This document shows, piece after piece, positions 15,086 through 42,279 of a stretch of 64,000 nucleotides of DNA. The stretch comes from Escherichia coli. GTDB taxonomy: Bacteria > Pseudomonadota > Gammaproteobacteria > Enterobacterales > Enterobacteriaceae. The translations under genes were made by a program, and so were the position numbers. The stretch is taken from NCBI RefSeq assembly GCF_003790525.1, contig NZ_CP033635.1; one strand, 5' to 3'. Positions within the stretch are counted from its first letter, which is position 1. Every line of letters starts with the position of its first letter. A model generated the notes under the pieces. The model saw nothing but the letters and a program-made list of their open reading frames with translations. It was not told where the DNA came from and searched no databases.

Positions 15086-16715
15086 TAAATTCCTAAAGTT
15101 GTTTTCTTGCGATTTTGTCTCTCTCTAACCCGCATAAATACTGGTAGCATCTGCATTCAACTGGATAAAATTACAGGGATGCAGAATGAGACACTTTATC
15201 TATCAGGACGAAAAATCACATAAATTCAGGGCAGTTGAGCAACAGGGAAACGAGTTGCATATCAGTTGGGGAAAAGTTGGCACCAAAGGGCAAAGCCAGA
15301 TAAAAAGTTTTTCAGATGCTGCGGCAGCGGCAAAAGCGGAGCTTAAGCTGATTGCGGAGAAGGTGAAGAAGGGGTATGTGGAGCAAGCGAAGGATAATTC
15401 TTTGCAACCTTCCCAAACGGTAACGGGCTCTCTCAAGGTAGCGGACTTATCCACCATTATTCAGGAACAACCCTCTTTCGTAGCAGAAACCCGTGCGCCT
15501 GACAAAAATACAGATGCTGTTTTACCGTGGCTGGCGAAAGATATTGCTGTCGTTTTTCCGCCCGAAGTTGTACACACCACGTTAAGTCATCGCCGCTTTC
15601 CCGGAGTTCCTGTTCAGCAAGCAGACAAATTGCCCCAATTACGTCGCTTAGCCTGTAGTGTGTCGCAACGGGATAATAAAACAGCCACATTTGACTTCAG
15701 CGCCTGTTCTTTAGAATGGCAAAACACCGTCGCCCAGGCGATCAGTCAGATCGACGGCCTGAAAACAACACAGTTACCATCACCAGTAATGGCTGTACTC
15801 ACGGCACTTGAAATGAAATGCACAAGATATAAAGTGCGTGAGGATGTTATGGATCAGATCGTCCAGGAAGGCGGTCTGGAATATGCTACTGATGTAATAA
15901 TACACCTTCAACAGATTGATATTGAATGGGATTATGCGAATAATGTCATTATTATTCTGCCGTCTGGCATTGCACCTAGCTACTTGGAGCAATATTCCAG
16001 ATTTGAATGACGCCTACGTAAACATTTATCACTGACGGAAGAGTCTCTCTGGCAAAAATGTGCACAAAAACTTATTGCCGCAATTCCACATATTCCAGAA
16101 TGGCGGCAACCATTAATTGCTTTGTTATTACCCGAAAAACCAGAAATTGCACATGAAATTGCCCAGCGTCTACTGGGGCAAAAAAAATTACCCTCGCTTG
16201 AGTGGTTAAAAATAGTGGCGACTGATGAGCACATTCTTGCCTCATTAGAAAAATATCACGAACCATATGCCATTTTTGATGATTACTATTGTGGTGCGAT
16301 ATGGTCAGCCACCGTATTACAGGAGCAAGGTGTTGCAGCCCTGCCCCGATTTGCTCCCTATGCCGCAAGTGACTACTGCGCCGATGTGTTGCGTCATATC
16401 AATCATCCGTTCGCATTGACACTGCTTATACGTGTAGCCGGGCAAACTAAACGCTGTCACGATCGGATGACGAAAGCCATTGCTGCGTTCCCACATGCAG
16501 CAATGGCGGCACTGACGGAACTTCTTGGGCAAAAAGAAGAGAACAGTTGGCGCATTATGCTAATGACAATGCTTATCTCACAACCAGCACTGGCAGAACA
16601 GGTCATTCCCTGGCTCTCGACACCCGCAGTTGCCGTACTGAAATCATGCCAGCAACAACTGACACAGCCCTCAAACCATGCCAGCGCCGATCTACTGCCA
16701 GCCGTAGTAGTCTCC

Positions 16716-18054
16716 CATAAGCGCTAACTTAAGGGTTGTGGTATTACGCCTGATATGATTTAACGTGCCGATGAATTACTCTCACGATAACTGGTCAGCA
16801 ATTCTGGCCCATATTGGTAAGCCCGAAGAACTGGATACTTCGGCACGTAATGCCGGGGCTCTAACCCGCCGCCGCGAAATTCGTGATGCTGCAACTCTGC
16901 TACGTCTGGGGCTGGCTTACGGCCCCGGGGGGATGTCATTACGTGAAGTCACTGCATGGGCTCAGCTCCATGACGTTGCAACATTATCTGACGTGGCTCT
17001 CCTGAAGCGGCTGCGGAATGCCGCCGACTGGTTTGGCATACTTGCCGCACAAACACTTGCTGTACGCGCCGCAGTTACGGGTTGTACAAGCGGAAAGAGA
17101 TTGCGTCTTGTCGATGGAACAGCAATCAGTGCGCCCGGGGGCGGCAGCGCTGAATGGCGACTACATATGGGATATGATCCTCATACCTGTCAGTTCACTG
17201 ATTTTGAGCTAACCGACAGCAGAGACGCTGAACGGCTGGACCGATTTGCGCAAACGGCAGACGAGATACGCATTGCTGACCGGGGATTCGGTTCGCGTCC
17301 CGAATGTATCCGCTCACTTGCTTTTGGAGAAGCTGATTATATCGTCCGGGTTCACTGGCGAGGATTGCGCTGGTTAACTGCAGAAGGAATGCGCTTTGAC
17401 ATGATGGGTTTTCTGCGCGGGCTGGATTGCGGTAAGAACGGTGAAACCACTGTAATGATAGGCAATTCAGGTAATAAAAAAGCCGGAGCTCCCTTTCCGG
17501 CACGTCTCATTGCCGTATCACTTCCTCCCGAAAAAGCATTAATCAGTAAAACCCGACTGCTCAGCGAGAATCGTCGAAAAGGACGAGTAGTTCAGGCGGA
17601 AACGCTGGAAGCAGCGGGCCATGTGCTATTGCTAACATCATTACCGGAAGATGAATATTCAGCAGAGCAAGTGGCTGATTGTTACCGTCTGCGATGGCAA
17701 ATTGAACTGGCTTTTAAGCGGCTCAAAAGTTTGCTGCACCTGGATGCTTTGCGTGCAAAGGAACCTGAACTCGCGAAAGCGTGGATATTTGCTAATCTAC
17801 TCGCCGCATTTTTAATTGACGACATAATCCAGCCATCGCTGGATTTCCCCCCCAGAAGTGCCGGATCCGAAAAGAAGAACTAACTCGTTGTGGAGAATAA
17901 CAAAAATGGTCATCTGGAGCTTACAGGTGGCCATTCGTGGGACAGTATCCCTGACAGCCTACAAAACGCAATTGAAGAACGCGAGGCATCGTCTTAACGA
18001 GGCACCGAGGCGTCGCATTCTTCAGATGGTTCAACCCTTAAGTTAGCGCTTATG
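16716..18054 (+). mobile_element. IS186 (IS4 family) insertion sequence, 1339 bp, perfect 23-bp terminal inverted repeats, flanked by a 10-bp target duplication
   Basis: Left end CATAAGCGCTAACTTAAGGGTTG (16716-16738) is the exact inverted complement of the right end (18032-18054); direct repeat AGTAGTCTCC at 16706-16715 and 18055-18064. Confidence 0.85.
16771..17883 (+). CDS. insL: IS186 transposase (DDE, IS4 family)
   Basis: 370-aa product MNYSHDNWSAILAHIGKPEEL... recognised as the IS186 transposase; lies between the terminal inverted repeats. Confidence 0.85.
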   Translation: MNYSHDNWSAILAHIGKPEELDTSARNAGALTRRREIRDAATLLRLGLAYGPGGMSLREVTAWAQLHDVATLSDVALLKRLRNAADWFGILAAQTLAVRAAVTGCTSGKRLRLVDGTAISAPGGGSAEWRLHMGYDPHTCQFTDFELTDSRDAERLDRFAQTADEIRIADRGFGSRPECIRSLAFGEADYIVRVHWRGLRWLTAEGMRFDMMGFLRGLDCGKNGETTVMIGNSGNKKAGAPFPARLIAVSLPPEKALISKTRLLSENRRKGRVVQAETLEAAGHVLLLTSLPEDEYSAEQVADCYRLRWQIELAFKRLKSLLHLDALRAKEPELAKAWIFANLLAAFLIDDIIQPSLDFPPRSAGSEKKN

Positions 18055-20338
18055 AGTAGTCTCCCCTCCCTGGCTTTCGAAAAAGAAAAAATCGCCGATT
18101 CCGGTGCTGGATTTAGCGCCATTAGGCATTGAGCCAATCTGTTATCTGACAGAAGAAATCAGTAATCAACTTTTGGCGAAATATATCTGGTATTCAAAAC
18201 ACATCACGGTTAGCCATGAAGAAAGTACTACCAACCTGTTGGCAAGGATGGGTTTTCAACGACGGATCGCTGGTACATATATTAAAGCTCCCGAAGCGGT
18301 AGTTGAGGCATGGCTAAATGAAGATTATTCAACCTTACTAAGTGAATTTAAGGTGTTTCATTCACCTACCGGGCATTATTGGCAGTTGGGGATTTTGACA
18401 ACATTGCCGCTGGAGAAAGCAGTAAAAGCATGGAATGCCCTTACCCTATCTCCACATACCGATACCGAATACTCCATGTTACATTTTGGACTCAAAGGGT
18501 TACCTGGGTTAGTAAACTCACTTGCACGCTATCCACAAGAAGCCTTGCCCATCACGAATTACTTCGCAGCGAGTGAGCTGGCTCCTGCCGTCGCCCGTGC
18601 CTTCAACAAACTGAAAACGCTACGCGAAAACGCCCGTAGCTGGCTGTTGAAATACCCGGAACATGCCCTTACCGGCCTGCTGCCTGCGGCGCTCGGCAAA
18701 GCCGGTGAAGCACAGGATAACGCCCGCGCTGCCTTGCGTATGCTTACCGAAAACGGTCATCAGCCATTACTGCAAGAAATCGCCCGACGTTATAACCAGC
18801 CGGAAGTAACCGATGCGGTGAACGCTCTGCTTGCGCTCGATCCCTTAGATAATCACCCGACAAAAATCCCCACTCTTCCGGCCTTTTATCAGCCATCGCT
18901 CTGGACGCGCCCGGTATTAAAAGCAAATGCCCAATCACTGCCAGATAGCGCCCTCCTCCACCTCGGTGAAATGCTCCGCTTCCCTCAGGAAGAGGCTCTG
19001 TATCCGGGATTATTGCAGGTGAAAGACGTCTGTTCCGCCGACTCACTGGCGGGATTTGCCTGGGATCTGTTTACCGCCTGGCAGACCGCTGGCGCGCCGT
19101 CGAAAGAGAGTTGGGCGTTCACTGCGTTAGGCGTTCTCGGTAACGATGACACCGCCCGCAAACTGACGCCATTAATACGCGCCTGGCCTGGTGAATCCCA
19201 GCATAAACGCGCCACCGTTGGGTTGGATATTCTCGCTGCTATCGGTAGTGATATCGCCCTTATGCAGCTTAACGGCATCGCCCAGAAACTGAAATTCAAA
19301 GCATTACAGGAGCGGGCAAAAGAAAAAATTGCCGACATTGCCGAGAGCCGCGAACTCACGGTGGCGGAGCTTGAAGATCGGTTAGCACCGGATCTCGGTC
19401 TGGATGATAACGGTTCGCTGCTGCTGGATTTTGGCCCACGGCAGTTCACCGTCAGCTTTGATGAAACCTTAAAACCGTTTGTGCGTGATGTTTCCGGCAG
19501 CCGCCTGAAAGACCTGCCCAAACCGAACAAAAGCGATGATGAAACGCGGGCGAACGATGCGGTTAACCGCTACAAATTGCTGAAAAAAGATGCGCGTACC
19601 ATCGCCGCCCAGCAGGTAGCAAGGCTGGAATCCGCCATGTGCCTGCGCCGCCGCTGGTCGCTGGAAAACTTCCAGCTCTTCCTGGTTGAGCATCCGCTGG
19701 TTCGTCACTTAACCCGCCGTCTGATTTGGGGCGTTTATAGCGCCGAAAACCAGCTACTGGCTTGCTTTCGCGTAGCAGAAGATAACAGCTCCAGCACCGC
19801 TGACGATGATCTTTTCACCCTGCCGGAAGGCGATATCTCTATCGGCACTCCTCACGTTCTGGAAATATCACCAACGGATGCTGCCGCCTTTGGTCAGCTT
19901 TTTGCCGACTACGAACTGCTACCACCGTTCCGCCAGCTCGACCGTAACAGCTACGCCCTGACAGAAGCCGAGCGCAATGCCAGTGAACTGACCCGCTGGG
20001 CAGGCAGAAAATGCCCGAGTGGTCGGGTCATGGGGCTGGCGAATAAAGGCTGGATAAAGGGCGAACCACAGGATGGAGGCTGGATCGGATGGATGATCAA
20101 ACCTTTGGGTCGCTGGTCGTTAATCATGGAAATCGATGAAGGCTTTGCGGTAGGCATGTCGCCAGCCGAACTCAGCGCTGAGCAGCTCTTAAGCAAGCTG
20201 TGGCTATGGGAAGGCAAAGCAGAAAGATATGGCTGGGGGAGTAATTCAACACAGGAAGCGCAGTTCTCCGTAATCGATGCCATCACCGCCAGCGAGCTAA
20301 TTAACGATATTGAAGCCCTGTTTGAATAAGGAAAGAGC

Positions 20339-23300
20339 ATGGACAAGGAATTACCGTGGCTGGCGGATAACGCCCAACTGGAACTGAAATATAAAAAAGG
20401 CAAAACGCCGCTCAGTCATCGTCGCTGGCCGGGCGAACCAGTGTCCGTTATCACTGGAAGTCTCATCCAGACATTGGGTGATGAATTGCTACAAAAAGCT
20501 GAGAAGAAAAAAAACATTGTCTGGCGTTATGAGAATTTTTCACTGGAGTGGCAGTCCGCCATCACGCAGGCCATCAACTTGATCGGCGAACACAAACCCT
20601 CAATCCCGGCCCGGACAATGGCGGCGCTAGCCTGTATCGCGCAAAATGACAGCCAACAGTTGCTCGACGAAATCGTCCAACAAGAGGGGCTGGAATATGC
20701 GACTGAGGTGGTGATTGCACGCCAGTTTATTGCGCGGTGTTATGAGAGTGATCCTCTGGTAGTGACATTGCAGTATCAGGACGAGGATTATGGCTATGGT
20801 TATCGCTCAGAAACCTATAACGAATTCGATCTCCGACTGCGTAAGCATCTCTCTCTGGCAGAGGAAAGCTGCTGGCAGCGTTGCGCCGACAAACTCATTG
20901 CCGCACTACCAGGAATAACCAAAGTTCGCCGCCCTTTTATTGCGCTGATCCTCCCGGAAAAACCAGAAATAGCCAATGAGTTGGTAGGCCTTGAATGCCC
21001 GCGAACTCATTTTCATTCTAAGGAGTGGTTAAAAGTTGTTGCTAATGACCCCACAGCGGTGAGAAAACTCGAACACTACTGGAGCCAGGATATATTTAGC
21101 GATCGAGAAGCCAGCTACATGTCGCATGAAAACCACTTCGGCTACGCGGCCTGCGCCGCCCTTTTGCGCGAACAAGGACTGGCAGCCATTCCGCGCCTCG
21201 CGATGTATGCCCATAAAGAAGATTGCGGCAGTCTGCTGGTACAAATTAACCATCCGCAAGTCATCCGCACCTTGCTACTGGTGGCTGATAAAAACAAACC
21301 CAGCCTGCAACGTGTAGCTAAATACCATAAAAACTTCCCCCATGCGACGCTCGCCGCACTGGCAGAACTGCTGGCGTTAACAGAACCACCAGCCCGCCCT
21401 GGTTATCCAATCATCGAAGACAAAAAGCTGCCTGCACAGCAAAAAGCACGCGATGAATACTGGCGTACGCTGTTACAAACGCTGATGGCATCGCAGCCAC
21501 AACTGGCAGCAGAAGTGATGCCGTGGTTAAGTACTCAACCCCAGTCAGTGCTGAAGAGTTATTTATCGGCACCGCCCAAACCGGTTATTGATGGCACCGA
21601 TAACAGCAATCTGCCAGAAATCCTCGTTTCACCACCGTGGCGTAGTAAGAAAAAAATGACAGCTCCACGTCTTGATTTGGCACCGCTCGAATTAACTCCG
21701 CAAGTTTACTGGCAACCAGGCGAACAAGAGAGGCTTGCCGCCACTGAGCCTGCCCGTTATTTCAGCACGGAATCTCTTGCGCAACGCATGGAACAAAAAA
21801 GTGGACGAGTTGTATTACAGGAACTGGGTTTTGGGGATGATGTATGGCTGTTTCTGAATTATATACTCCCCGGAAAACTGGATGCTGCACGCAATTCACT
21901 CTTGTTCAGTGGCATTACTACCAGGGGCGGGTTGAAGAGATCCTGAATGGCTGGAACTCCCCGGAAGCACAATTAGCAGAACAGGCGCTCCGCAGCGGTC
22001 ACATAGAAGCGTTAATTAACATATGGGAAAATGACAACTACTCACATTATCGTCCGGAAAAGAGTGTCTGGAACCTGTATTTATTGGCACAGTTGCCGCG
22101 TGAGATGGCTTTGACCTTCTGGCTGCGTATCAATGAGAAAAAGCATCTGTTCGCGGGTGAGGACTATTTTCTCAGTATCCTCGGATTGGATGCGCTACCA
22201 GGTCTGCTGTTGGCTTTTTCACATCGTCCAAAAGAAACATTTCCGTTAATTTTAAATTTTGGCGCAACAGAACTGGCGCTGCCTGTTGCCCACGTCTGGC
22301 GACGTTTCGCGGCGCAGCGTGATCTGGCTCGCCAGTGGATTTTACAATGGCCGGAACATACGGCTAGTGCACTTATCCCTCTTGTCTTTACCAAACCCAG
22401 CGATAATAGCGAAGCCGCATTACTTGCCCTGCGTTTACTGTACGAACAGGGACATGGCGAATTGCTACAAACCGTGGCAAACCGCTGGCAGCGTACAGAT
22501 GTATGGTCTGCCCTGGAGCAGTTGCTTAAACAGGGTCCAATGGACATTTACCCGGCACGCATTCCAAAAGCCCCTGATTTCTGGCATCCGCAAATGTGGT
22601 CCAGGCCGCGCCTTATCACTAATAATCAAACTGTTACCAATGACGCTCTGGAAATTATCGGCGAAATGCTGCGCTTTACCCAGGGGGGACGTTTTTATAG
22701 CGGGCTGGAACAACTGAAAACGTTCTGCCAGCCACAAACGCTGGCAGCTTTTGCCTGGGATCTCTTCACTGCGTGGCAACAAGCTGGTGCCCCCGCAAAA
22801 GACAACTGGGCATTTCTGGCGTTAAGTCTCTTTGGTGACGAAAGCACGGCACGGGATCTGACGACACAGATCCTCGCCTGGCCACAAGAAGGCAAATCTG
22901 CCCGTGCTGTCAGCGGCCTGAACATCCTTACCCTGATGAATAATGATATGGCGCTGATACAGCTGCATCATATATCGCAACGGGCTAAATCCCGCCCCTT
23001 ACGTGATAACGCGGCGGAATTTCTTCAGGTGGTCGCAGAAAATCGCGGGCTAAGCCAGGAAGAGCTAGCGGACAGATTAGTCCCAACCCTGGGCCTTGAT
23101 GATCCGCAGGCGTTGAGTTTTGATTTTGGTCCCCGGCAGTTTACCGTTCGCTTCGATGAAAATCTCAACCCGGTTATCTTTGATCAGCAAAACGTTCGCC
23201 AGAAAAGCGTTCCCCGTTTGCGCGCCGATGACGATCAACTGAAAGCGCCCGAGGCACTGGCCCGACTAAAAGGGCTAAAAAAAGATGCTACTCAGGTGAG

Positions 23301-23970
23301 CAAAAACCTGCTCCCGCGTCTTGAAACGGCCCTACGTACCACCCGACGCTGGTCGCTGGCAGATTTTCATTCTCTGTTTGTTAATCATCCCTTTACCCGT
23401 CTGGTTACCCAGCGATTAATATGGGGGGTTTATCCGGCAAATGAACCGCGTTGTTTACTCAAAGCCTTTCGTGTGGCCGCAGAGGGGGAGTTCTGCAATG
23501 CGCAAGATGAGCCAATTGACCTGCCTGCGGACGCTCTGATTGGCATTGCCCACCCGTTAGAAATGACAGCAGAAATGCGCAGTGAATTTGCACAGCTTTT
23601 TGCCGATTACGAAATTATGCCGCCTTTTCGCCAGTTGTCGCGCCGCACGGTGCTGCTCACACCTGACGAGTCAACCAGTAACAGCCTGACTCGCTGGGAA
23701 GGTAAATCCGCTACCGTTGGGCAACTTATGGGAATGCGATACAAAGGCTGGGAGTCAGGCTATGAGGACGCATTTGTCTATAACCTGGGTGAGTACCGGC
23801 TGGTCCTTAAGTTTTCACCCGGTTTTAACCACTACAATGTTGATAGCAAAGCGCTAATGAGCTTCCGTTCTCTTCGAGTGTACCGTGACAATAAATCCGT
23901 CACTTTTGCCGAACTTGATGTGTTTGATTTGAGTGAGGCGTTAAGCGCACCTGACGTCATTTTCCATTAA
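20339..23970 (+). pseudogene. yehI: yehI-like DUF4132 gene split into two overlapping ORFs by a frameshift within 21841-21946
   Basis: ORFs 20339-21946 and 21844-23970 overlap in different frames and together are collinear with the molR paralogue. Confidence 0.65.
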
Positions 23971-24030
23971 AACACAGCGGGCAGTGATGCAACTGCCCGT
24001 TATCAACACGACTTACCAGCGGGGAAAGCG

Positions 24031-24348: not shown

Positions 24349-24517
24349 TATACTCTAAATAATTCAAATTGGTCCGATCCGGCGCAACGTCCCAATGGCC
24401 TGGATTATAAATCTCATTATCTTAATTGCAACGGGGTCCAGCCGTGGTTATAATTCGTTCGTTGGAACACGATGTTGCACAGGCTGTGGTGTTAGGCCTG
24501 AAAATAGTAAATAAAAG

Positions 24518-24546
24518 AACCTGCCTCACCAGCAGGTTTTTTTATT
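24518..24546 (+). terminator. intrinsic terminator about 170 nt downstream of yehK
   Basis: Hairpin CCTGC-CTCACCA-GCAGG followed by TTTTTTTATTT. Confidence 0.65.
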
Positions 24547-24654
24547 TACTGTGATCTGCTTTCCAGATATTTTTCGCTCAAACAACTAATGCGCCAAACA
24601 TTTATTGCGCGTAAAATATCGTTTATTTCATTAATACATTTCAGGGATGAATAT

Positions 24655-42084: not shown

Positions 42085-42279
42085 ATGGATTTTTCTTCCT
42101 TTGTTGCCCGACGTGGCAGCGAAAATGGTGCAAAAACCGTAGTTTGCCATAAGCATGATGGAGAGAGAAAAAGAATGCTCAGTTTATTGTCTGAATTTTC
42201 AAAATATTCACTCGCTGAATTGTTATACAAGGCGCTATTCTAGTTTGTGATATTTTTTCGCCACCACAAGGAGTGGAAA

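What the first reader, a model, noticed from the sequence alone, without database searches (positions are those of the whole stretch)
21841..21946. Frameshift splitting yehI into two overlapping ORFs
Frame A continues to the TGA at 21944-21946; frame B is closed by a TGA at 21838-21840 and open from 21844 onward. The shift must therefore lie in this ~100-bp overlap, which contains short C, A and G runs. yehI is intact in K-12 as I recall, so this is either a strain-specific inactivating indel or a homopolymer sequencing error.
Basis: partly seen in the sequence, partly recalled or inferred. Interest (0 to 1): 0.4.

Follow-up and report, generated by a model that had tools for sequence, protein, structure and literature searches.

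The report
One-base deletion inactivating yehI
The E. coli gene yehI, whose function is unknown, is broken here by the loss of a single T; the same deletion appears in dozens of independent assemblies, so it is a real but ordinary lineage-specific pseudogene and not a sequencing error.

Summary
ORF A (20339-21946, 535 aa) and ORF B (21844-23970, 708 aa) overlap by about 100 nt and together make up yehI, which is 1210 aa when intact. The cause is one missing T: intact alleles read CTC-TTT-GTT at codon 522, and the window reads CTCTTGTT (TT at 21902-21903). The other 3.7 kb is identical to a very common intact allele (WP_000356822.1). Among 5,426 complete E. coli genomes only strain TUM9803 shares the deletion, and NCBI's PGAP pipeline already annotates yehI there as a "frameshifted" pseudogene. 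The window is not TUM9803. The exact 535-aa truncated product is recorded on 45 contigs from NCBI, SRA-derived (Logan) and ENA assemblies, and five fetched loci carry the same DNA deletion. About 47 other genes in the window show no frameshift or premature stop. This rules out a sequencing error. The overlap has no slippery heptamer and no long homopolymer, so programmed recoding is very unlikely. The truncated product lacks the C-terminal DUF4132 domain. The upstream paralogue yehH/molR is also dead (internal stop plus an IS421 insertion). Verdict: a real, recent, lineage-restricted loss-of-function allele of a frequently disrupted locus. Low interest.

The parts
20339..23970 (+). yehI pseudogene: the whole gene, 3632 bp here against 3633 bp when intact
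   Evidence: 100% identical over 20300-24000 to TUM9803, where PGAP annotates 'yehI, DUF4132 domain-containing protein YehI, frameshifted'. It differs from the intact allele WP_000356822.1 (L002) only by the missing T, and from K-12 yehI by one SNP (20919) plus the missing T.
20339..21946 (+). ORF A: 521 native YehI residues plus 14 out-of-frame residues (LFSGITTRGGLKRS), then TGA. The 535-aa product has no Pfam domain.
   Evidence: The exact product P0001 is on 45 contigs in the public collection.
21902..21903 (+). Mutation site: TT where intact alleles have TTT (codon 522, Phe). This is a 1-bp deletion.
   Evidence: first difference from the left at 21904, last difference from the right at 21901; gap at 21901-21903 against L002, L006 and K-12.
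21944..21946 (+). Premature TGA stop reached in the shifted frame
21844..23970 (+). ORF B: the native frame of YehI residues 523-1210, preceded by 20 non-native codons starting at an ATG. A weak Shine-Dalgarno-like GGGGA lies 6 nt upstream. Gene callers in other assemblies start it at the TTG at 22084 (628 aa).
23197..23751 (+). DUF4132 domain (PF13569), now separated from the N-terminal 43% of the protein
   Evidence: residues 452-636 of ORF B, which are residues 954-1138 of the intact protein; E = 1e-47
15186..20329 (+). Upstream paralogue yehH/molR (WGR + DUF4132), also a pseudogene: internal TGA at 16008-16010 and an IS421 insertion at 16717-18054

Best explanation
yehI in this strain is a genuine pseudogene. 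It was created by a recent spontaneous 1-bp deletion (TTT to TT at codon 522) in an otherwise unchanged copy of a very common intact allele. Translation from the normal start shifts frame after residue 521, reads 14 wrong codons and stops at 21944-21946. The result is a 535-aa fragment without the C-terminal DUF4132 domain. The remaining ~2 kb is probably untranslated or poorly translated. The allele is inherited within a lineage and also occurs on more than one chromosomal background. Shown here: the deletion, its exact position, its recurrence in independent assemblies, and the loss of the domain from the product. Inferred: loss of function, origin by replication slippage or a simple deletion, and possible polarity on the downstream genes yehK and yehLMPQ.
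For: (1) A single 1-nt gap is the only difference from the intact allele over 3.7 kb. (2) TUM9803 carries the identical deletion and PGAP flags it as frameshifted. The window is a different genome: relative to TUM9803 it has an IS421 insertion, 199 mismatches between 18-49 kb and a different right-hand junction. (3) The exact 535-aa product, which only this deletion can generate, is on 45 contigs, and the index lists it in 66 blocks from NCBI, Logan and ENA. Five fetched loci (L007-L011) all contain the deleted DNA string and none contains the intact string. (4) Forty-seven other genes of the window align to reference alleles with 0 gaps and 0 internal stops, so the assembly is not error-prone. 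(5) One carrier (L011) has a second 1-bp deletion at 23277 in the C-terminal part, as expected for decay after inactivation. (6) DUF4132 lies entirely downstream of the shift. (7) The locus is often disrupted in E. coli: yehI has IS3, IS1A and ISVsa5 insertions in other complete genomes, yehH is a pseudogene in K-12 (PMC3950696), and TnMB1860 disrupts the metG/DUF4132/yeh region in 184 ST131 isolates (PMC9334617).
Against: No reads were available for the window's own assembly, so this particular record is not independently verified at the site. Its 100% identity to L010 over 9,969 bp including the site makes an error very unlikely. Loss of function is inferred and not measured: YehI has no known function, and ORF B has an in-frame ATG with a weak Shine-Dalgarno-like motif, so a C-terminal polypeptide could still be made. 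The one metagenomic carrier with divergent flanks (L009) could be an assembly chimera and not a recombinant.
Confidence: 0.93

Rival explanations
1. Sequencing or assembly error: a homopolymer miscall, with the real genome having an intact yehI.
For: Single-base indels in runs are the classic long-read and 454 error. The window's source genome is not among the 5,426 RefSeq complete genomes, so its quality cannot be looked up.
Against: The identical deletion is present in TUM9803, two NCBI draft assemblies, assemblies of two SRA runs and an ENA metagenome, and the exact truncated product is on 45 contigs. The run is only 3 nt long. No other gene in the 64 kb has an indel.
Confidence: 0.02
2. 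Functional split gene: the N-terminal 521 residues and a separately initiated C-terminal DUF4132 polypeptide (from the ATG at 21844 or a later start) are both made and still work together.
For: ORF B has an in-frame ATG at 21844, inside the overlap, with GGGGA 6 nt upstream. The rest of the gene is still sequence-perfect.
Against: Sequence perfection is explained by the youth of the mutation (0 other differences from the parent allele). One carrier has already gained a second frameshift in ORF B (L011). Whether any relative of YehI occurs naturally as a split gene was not examined. The paralogue yehH is also dead in the same strain, which suggests the whole module is dispensable. There are no expression data.
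Confidence: 0.04
3. Programmed recoding: a -1 ribosomal frameshift or transcriptional slippage restores full-length YehI.
For: The two ORFs overlap, and going from frame A to frame B needs a -1 shift, which is the commoner programmed type in bacteria. A +1 frameshift hot spot has been reported in the neighbouring gene yehP (PMC2790909), but that is a different gene and a different direction.
Against: There is no X XXY YYZ heptamer in any frame in 21841-21946, and no homopolymer is longer than 4 nt. The arrangement is absent from 4,206 of the 4,208 complete genomes with a match at this site, where the gene is a single ORF. It is therefore a derived, rare state and not a conserved recoding signal.
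Confidence: 0.01

Closest known systems
yehI pseudogene of E. coli TUM9803 (NZ_CP135671.1, locus RS166_RS10185, PGAP note 'frameshifted')
   Same: Identical 3,701-bp sequence including the same missing T.
   Different: Different chromosome context. TUM9803 lacks the IS421 insertion in yehH, differs at 199 positions between 18-49 kb, and does not have the yohP/IS110/lysO junction.
Intact YehI (b2118; WP_000356817.1 in K-12 MG1655; WP_000356822.1 in many strains), a 1210-aa DUF4132 protein of unknown function
   Same: Same gene and the same neighbours (metG-yehH-yehI-yehK-yehLMPQ). It is 100% identical to the WP_000356822.1 allele apart from the deletion.
   Different: The window allele is truncated after residue 521 and loses DUF4132.
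molR/yehH pseudogene of K-12 and other disruptions of the metG/DUF4132/yeh region
   Same: These show the same kind of decay of a large DUF4132 gene in the same cluster. K-12 yehH is 'frameshifted; internal stop' (PMC3950696 lists it as 'disrupted in K12'). TnMB1860 disrupts the region in ST131 sublineage L1a (PMC9334617). yehI carries IS insertions in other complete genomes.
   Different: Those are different mutations (a stop codon, IS elements, a transposon), and mostly in the paralogue. Here the lesion is a point deletion in yehI itself.

Membership tests
Frameshift pseudogene (disabled copy of a gene that is intact in relatives) | An indel that is not a multiple of 3, relative to intact orthologues, producing a premature stop | tested here: met
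   1-nt gap at 21901-21903 against L002, L006 and K-12; stop at 21944-21946
Frameshift pseudogene (disabled copy of a gene that is intact in relatives) | The lesion is real, that is, reproducible in independent sequence data | tested here: met
   TUM9803 plus 5 fetched loci from NCBI, Logan and ENA; product on 45 contigs
Frameshift pseudogene (disabled copy of a gene that is intact in relatives) | Loss of function or expression of the full-length product | not testable with these tools
   Needs proteomics or a phenotype. Only loss of the DUF4132 domain from the ORF A product is shown.
DUF4132 (PF13569) protein YehI | Significant match to the PF13569 profile, plus orthologous position between yehH and yehK | tested here: met
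   E = 1e-47 against a curated cut-off of 27 bits; synteny
Programmed -1 ribosomal frameshift | Slippery heptamer X XXY YYZ in the overlap | tested here: not met
   None in any frame in 21841-21946
Programmed -1 ribosomal frameshift | Two-ORF arrangement conserved among homologues | tested here: not met
   Only 1 full-length exact match (TUM9803) among 4,208 complete genomes with a match at this site; all but two align with the extra T or another difference
Transcriptional slippage site | Long A or T homopolymer (usually 8 nt or more) in the overlap | tested here: not met
   The longest run is 4 nt
Known anti-phage defence proteins (PADLOC-DB v2) | Profile match of YehI, YehK, YehL or YehH | tested here: not met
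   0 families at E <= 0.01 for all four proteins

The most novel reading that the evidence does not exclude
The deletion may not be neutral decay. It could be a selected loss-of-function allele: together with the dead paralogue yehH it removes both DUF4132 proteins from the yeh cluster (a MoxR-type ATPase, a VWA protein and a SWIM zinc-finger protein). It may also have spread between E. coli backgrounds by homologous recombination. The window is a mosaic: about 42 kb of K-12/TUM9803-like DNA carrying the allele is joined to DNA identical to the KFu014/SMS-3-5 type. A metagenomic carrier, L009, likewise shows the allele inside a ~6.5-kb tract identical to the window and flanked by divergent sequence.
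Probability: 0.08. Interest if true: 0.3.

Novelty: already known. Interest (0 to 1): 0.07.

Why it matters
It matters little. The result is useful mainly as an annotation decision: call yehI a pseudogene here, not two genes and not an assembly error. It adds one more example that the metG-yehH-yehI region is a dispensable, frequently disrupted part of the E. coli chromosome. The allele could serve as a lineage marker. Because YehI has no known function, natural knock-outs such as this one, here combined with a dead yehH, could be used as ready-made strains for phenotyping the yeh cluster.

Tried and rejected
1. I first assumed the window was TUM9803, because yehI matched at 100%. I rejected this when the 25-kb query covered only 95% of TUM9803 and direct alignment showed an extra IS plus 199 mismatches.

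2. I looked for the source genome among the 5,426 complete RefSeq genomes using three larger queries. No record matched at 100% over the full length.

3. The second record in the '>=99%' band of the 80-bp search was never identified. It is not a full-length exact match, since it was not ranked second, so I treated it as a partial alignment.

4. The exact look-up of the 708-aa ORF B product found nothing. Gene callers start that ORF at the TTG at 22084 (628 aa).

5. A PADLOC scan of YehI, YehK, YehL and YehH for a defence-system link gave no hits.

6. Literature: the bare term 'yehI' returned only unrelated papers. Targeted searches gave context only: zor-orz type I toxins in the yehI-yehL intergenic region of O157 (PMC2887945), molR regulation by BglJ-RcsB (PMC3950696), TnMB1860 in the DUF4132 region (PMC9334617) and a yehP +1 frameshift hot spot (PMC2790909). 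None describes this deletion. Two papers mention TUM9803, and neither states its lineage: one uses it as the reference genome for comparing ST550 and ST1308 genomes, the other places it in a phylogenetic cluster with other clinical isolates.

7. I considered programmed frameshifting and transcriptional slippage and rejected both on sequence grounds.

8. Structure prediction and deep homology searches were not run. They would not change the verdict on the frameshift.

Full report
**Observation**

The window contains two overlapping same-strand ORFs, 20339..21946 (535 aa) and 21844..23970 (708 aa). Frame A ends at the TGA at 21944-21946. Frame B is closed by the TGA at 21838-21840 and open from 21841, with an ATG at 21844.

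**Identity of the gene**

A megablast of 20300-24000 against 5,426 complete E. coli genomes hits 5,330 of them. The annotated feature is yehI, 'DUF4132 domain-containing protein YehI'.

- Intact copies are 3,633 bp (1210 aa), for example in strain 203740 (WP_000356822.1) and in K-12 MG1655 (WP_000356817.1).
- Pfam finds a single domain, DUF4132 (PF13569), at residues 954-1138 of the intact protein.
- The gene sits in the usual order metG - yehH(molR) - yehI - yehK - yehL - yehM - yehP - yehQ.

**The lesion**

Direct comparison with the intact allele shows one difference in 3.7 kb. Intact alleles read ...AAT TCA CTC TTT GTT CAG TGG... and the window reads ...AAT TCA CTC TTG TTC AGT GG... One T of a T3 run (codon 522, Phe) is missing, leaving TT at 21902-21903.

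After 521 native residues the ribosome reads 14 out-of-frame codons (LFSGITTRGGLKRS) and stops.

**Real mutation or sequencing error?**

- An 80-bp query centred on the site finds 4,208 complete genomes. Only one, TUM9803 (NZ_CP135671.1), matches exactly over the full length, and the rest listed carry the extra T. PGAP annotates TUM9803 yehI as a pseudogene, 'frameshifted'.
- The window is not TUM9803. It has an extra 1,338-bp IS421 insertion at 16717-18054, 199 mismatches to TUM9803 between 18 and 49 kb, and a different right-hand end.
- The exact 535-aa product, whose C-terminal tail can only arise from this deletion, is in the public protein collection on 45 contigs from NCBI, Logan and ENA. 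The contig index lists it in 66 blocks.
- Five loci were fetched: two NCBI draft assemblies, assemblies of two SRA runs and an ENA metagenome scaffold. All contain the deleted DNA string and none contains the intact one. One of them, L010 (GCA_022972455.1), is 100% identical to the window over 9,969 bp.
- Forty-seven other genes across the 64 kb align to reference alleles with no gaps and no internal stops, so the assembly is not indel-prone.

A sequencing error is therefore excluded for practical purposes.

**Age and spread**

The deletion is therefore a recent derivative of a very common allele.

Carriers differ in the state of the neighbouring yehH:

- internal stop only (L007, L008, TUM9803);
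- internal stop plus IS421 (the window; L010 and L011 end inside the IS, upstream of which the stop lies);
- an intact 1264-aa yehH on a divergent flank in the metagenome scaffold L009, where only about 6.5 kb around the deletion is identical to the window.

L009 may be a recombinant or an assembly chimera. One carrier (L011) has a second 1-bp deletion at 23277, which is consistent with continuing decay.

**Recoding rivals**

Going from frame A to frame B needs a -1 shift. The overlap 21841-21946 contains no X XXY YYZ heptamer in any frame, and no homopolymer is longer than 4 nt. The two-ORF state is a rare derived state and is not conserved. Programmed frameshifting and transcriptional slippage are not supported.

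Independent translation of ORF B from the ATG at 21844 cannot be excluded, because a weak GGGGA motif lies 6 nt upstream. There is no evidence for it.

**Context**

- The upstream paralogue yehH/molR (WGR + DUF4132) is also inactivated here, by a TGA at 16008-16010 (TTA in the intact allele of L009) and by IS421. The internal stop is shared with K-12, whose yehH is a well-known pseudogene ('disrupted in K12', PMC3950696).
- The region is often disrupted in E. coli. IS3, IS1A and ISVsa5 insertions in yehI are visible in other complete genomes. The blaCTX-M-15 transposon TnMB1860 disrupts the metG/DUF4132/yeh region in 184 ST131 isolates (PMC9334617).
- yehK, yehL, yehM, yehP and yehQ are intact in the window.
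- None of YehI, YehK, YehL or YehH matches a PADLOC defence model.

**Verdict**

A sequencing error is wrong.

This is an ordinary, already-annotated kind of frameshift pseudogene in a gene of unknown function at a decay-prone locus. Novelty: already known. Interest is low.

The only mildly interesting extension is whether the loss of both DUF4132 paralogues is selected and whether the allele moves by recombination. The evidence for movement is that the window is a mosaic: it is K-12/TUM9803-like to about 42 kb and identical to KFu014 from about 43 kb onward.

Noticed in passing
window 16717-18054: A 1,338-bp insertion carrying an IS4-family IS421 (IS186-like) transposase (ORF 16765-17883) with an 11-bp target duplication AGTAGTCTCCC, inside yehH/molR. 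The same insertion site is present in NZ_LR883012, VL7S7, O121 strain 201805972 and the O9:H10 Res13 strains, but not in TUM9803 or K-12.
   Followed up: partly
window 16008-16010: Internal TGA in yehH/molR (TTA in the intact allele of L009). It is shared with K-12 MG1655 and TUM9803, so it predates both the IS insertion and the yehI deletion.
   Followed up: partly
window ~42100-43000 (bglX/dld): Sharp recombination breakpoint. To the left, the window is ~100% identical to TUM9803/K-12-type DNA and only 93-97% to KFu014. To the right (43-64 kb) it has 0 mismatches to KFu014 and is 97-98% identical to TUM9803.
   Followed up: partly
window 49654-50679 and flanks (49069-51918): An IS110-family transposase sits at a junction between yohP and lysO-hcp-hcr-poxB, loci that I recall (not tested here) lie far apart on the K-12 map. 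This rearranged arrangement is shared with SMS-3-5, KFu014 and only about 85 of 5,426 complete genomes.
   Followed up: partly
window 62058-63296 (- strand): A pentapeptide-repeat protein gene annotated as an incomplete pseudogene in the identical KFu014 sequence.
   Followed up: no
L011 (SRR23191208), position equivalent to window 23277: A second 1-bp deletion in the C-terminal half of yehI in one carrier of the T deletion. It splits ORF B into 404-aa and 224-aa products.
   Followed up: partly
L009 (ENA ERZ28617925 metagenome scaffold): The T deletion sits in a ~6.5-kb tract identical to the window (about 16010-22590), flanked by 1-2% divergent sequence and an intact 1264-aa yehH. This is either a recombinant haplotype or a chimeric metagenome assembly.
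   Followed up: no
window 24349-24654 (yehK-yehL intergenic): The intergenic region is short (~0.3 kb), as in K-12, so the zor-orz type I toxin-antitoxin repeats described between yehI and yehL in O157:H7 (PMC2887945) appear to be absent here.
   Followed up: no
protein cluster containing P0001: In the 90% clustering, the truncated YehI fragment is grouped with YehL MoxR ATPases under a 468-aa Logan representative. This looks like a clustering artefact, perhaps through a fused or chimeric representative.
   Followed up: no
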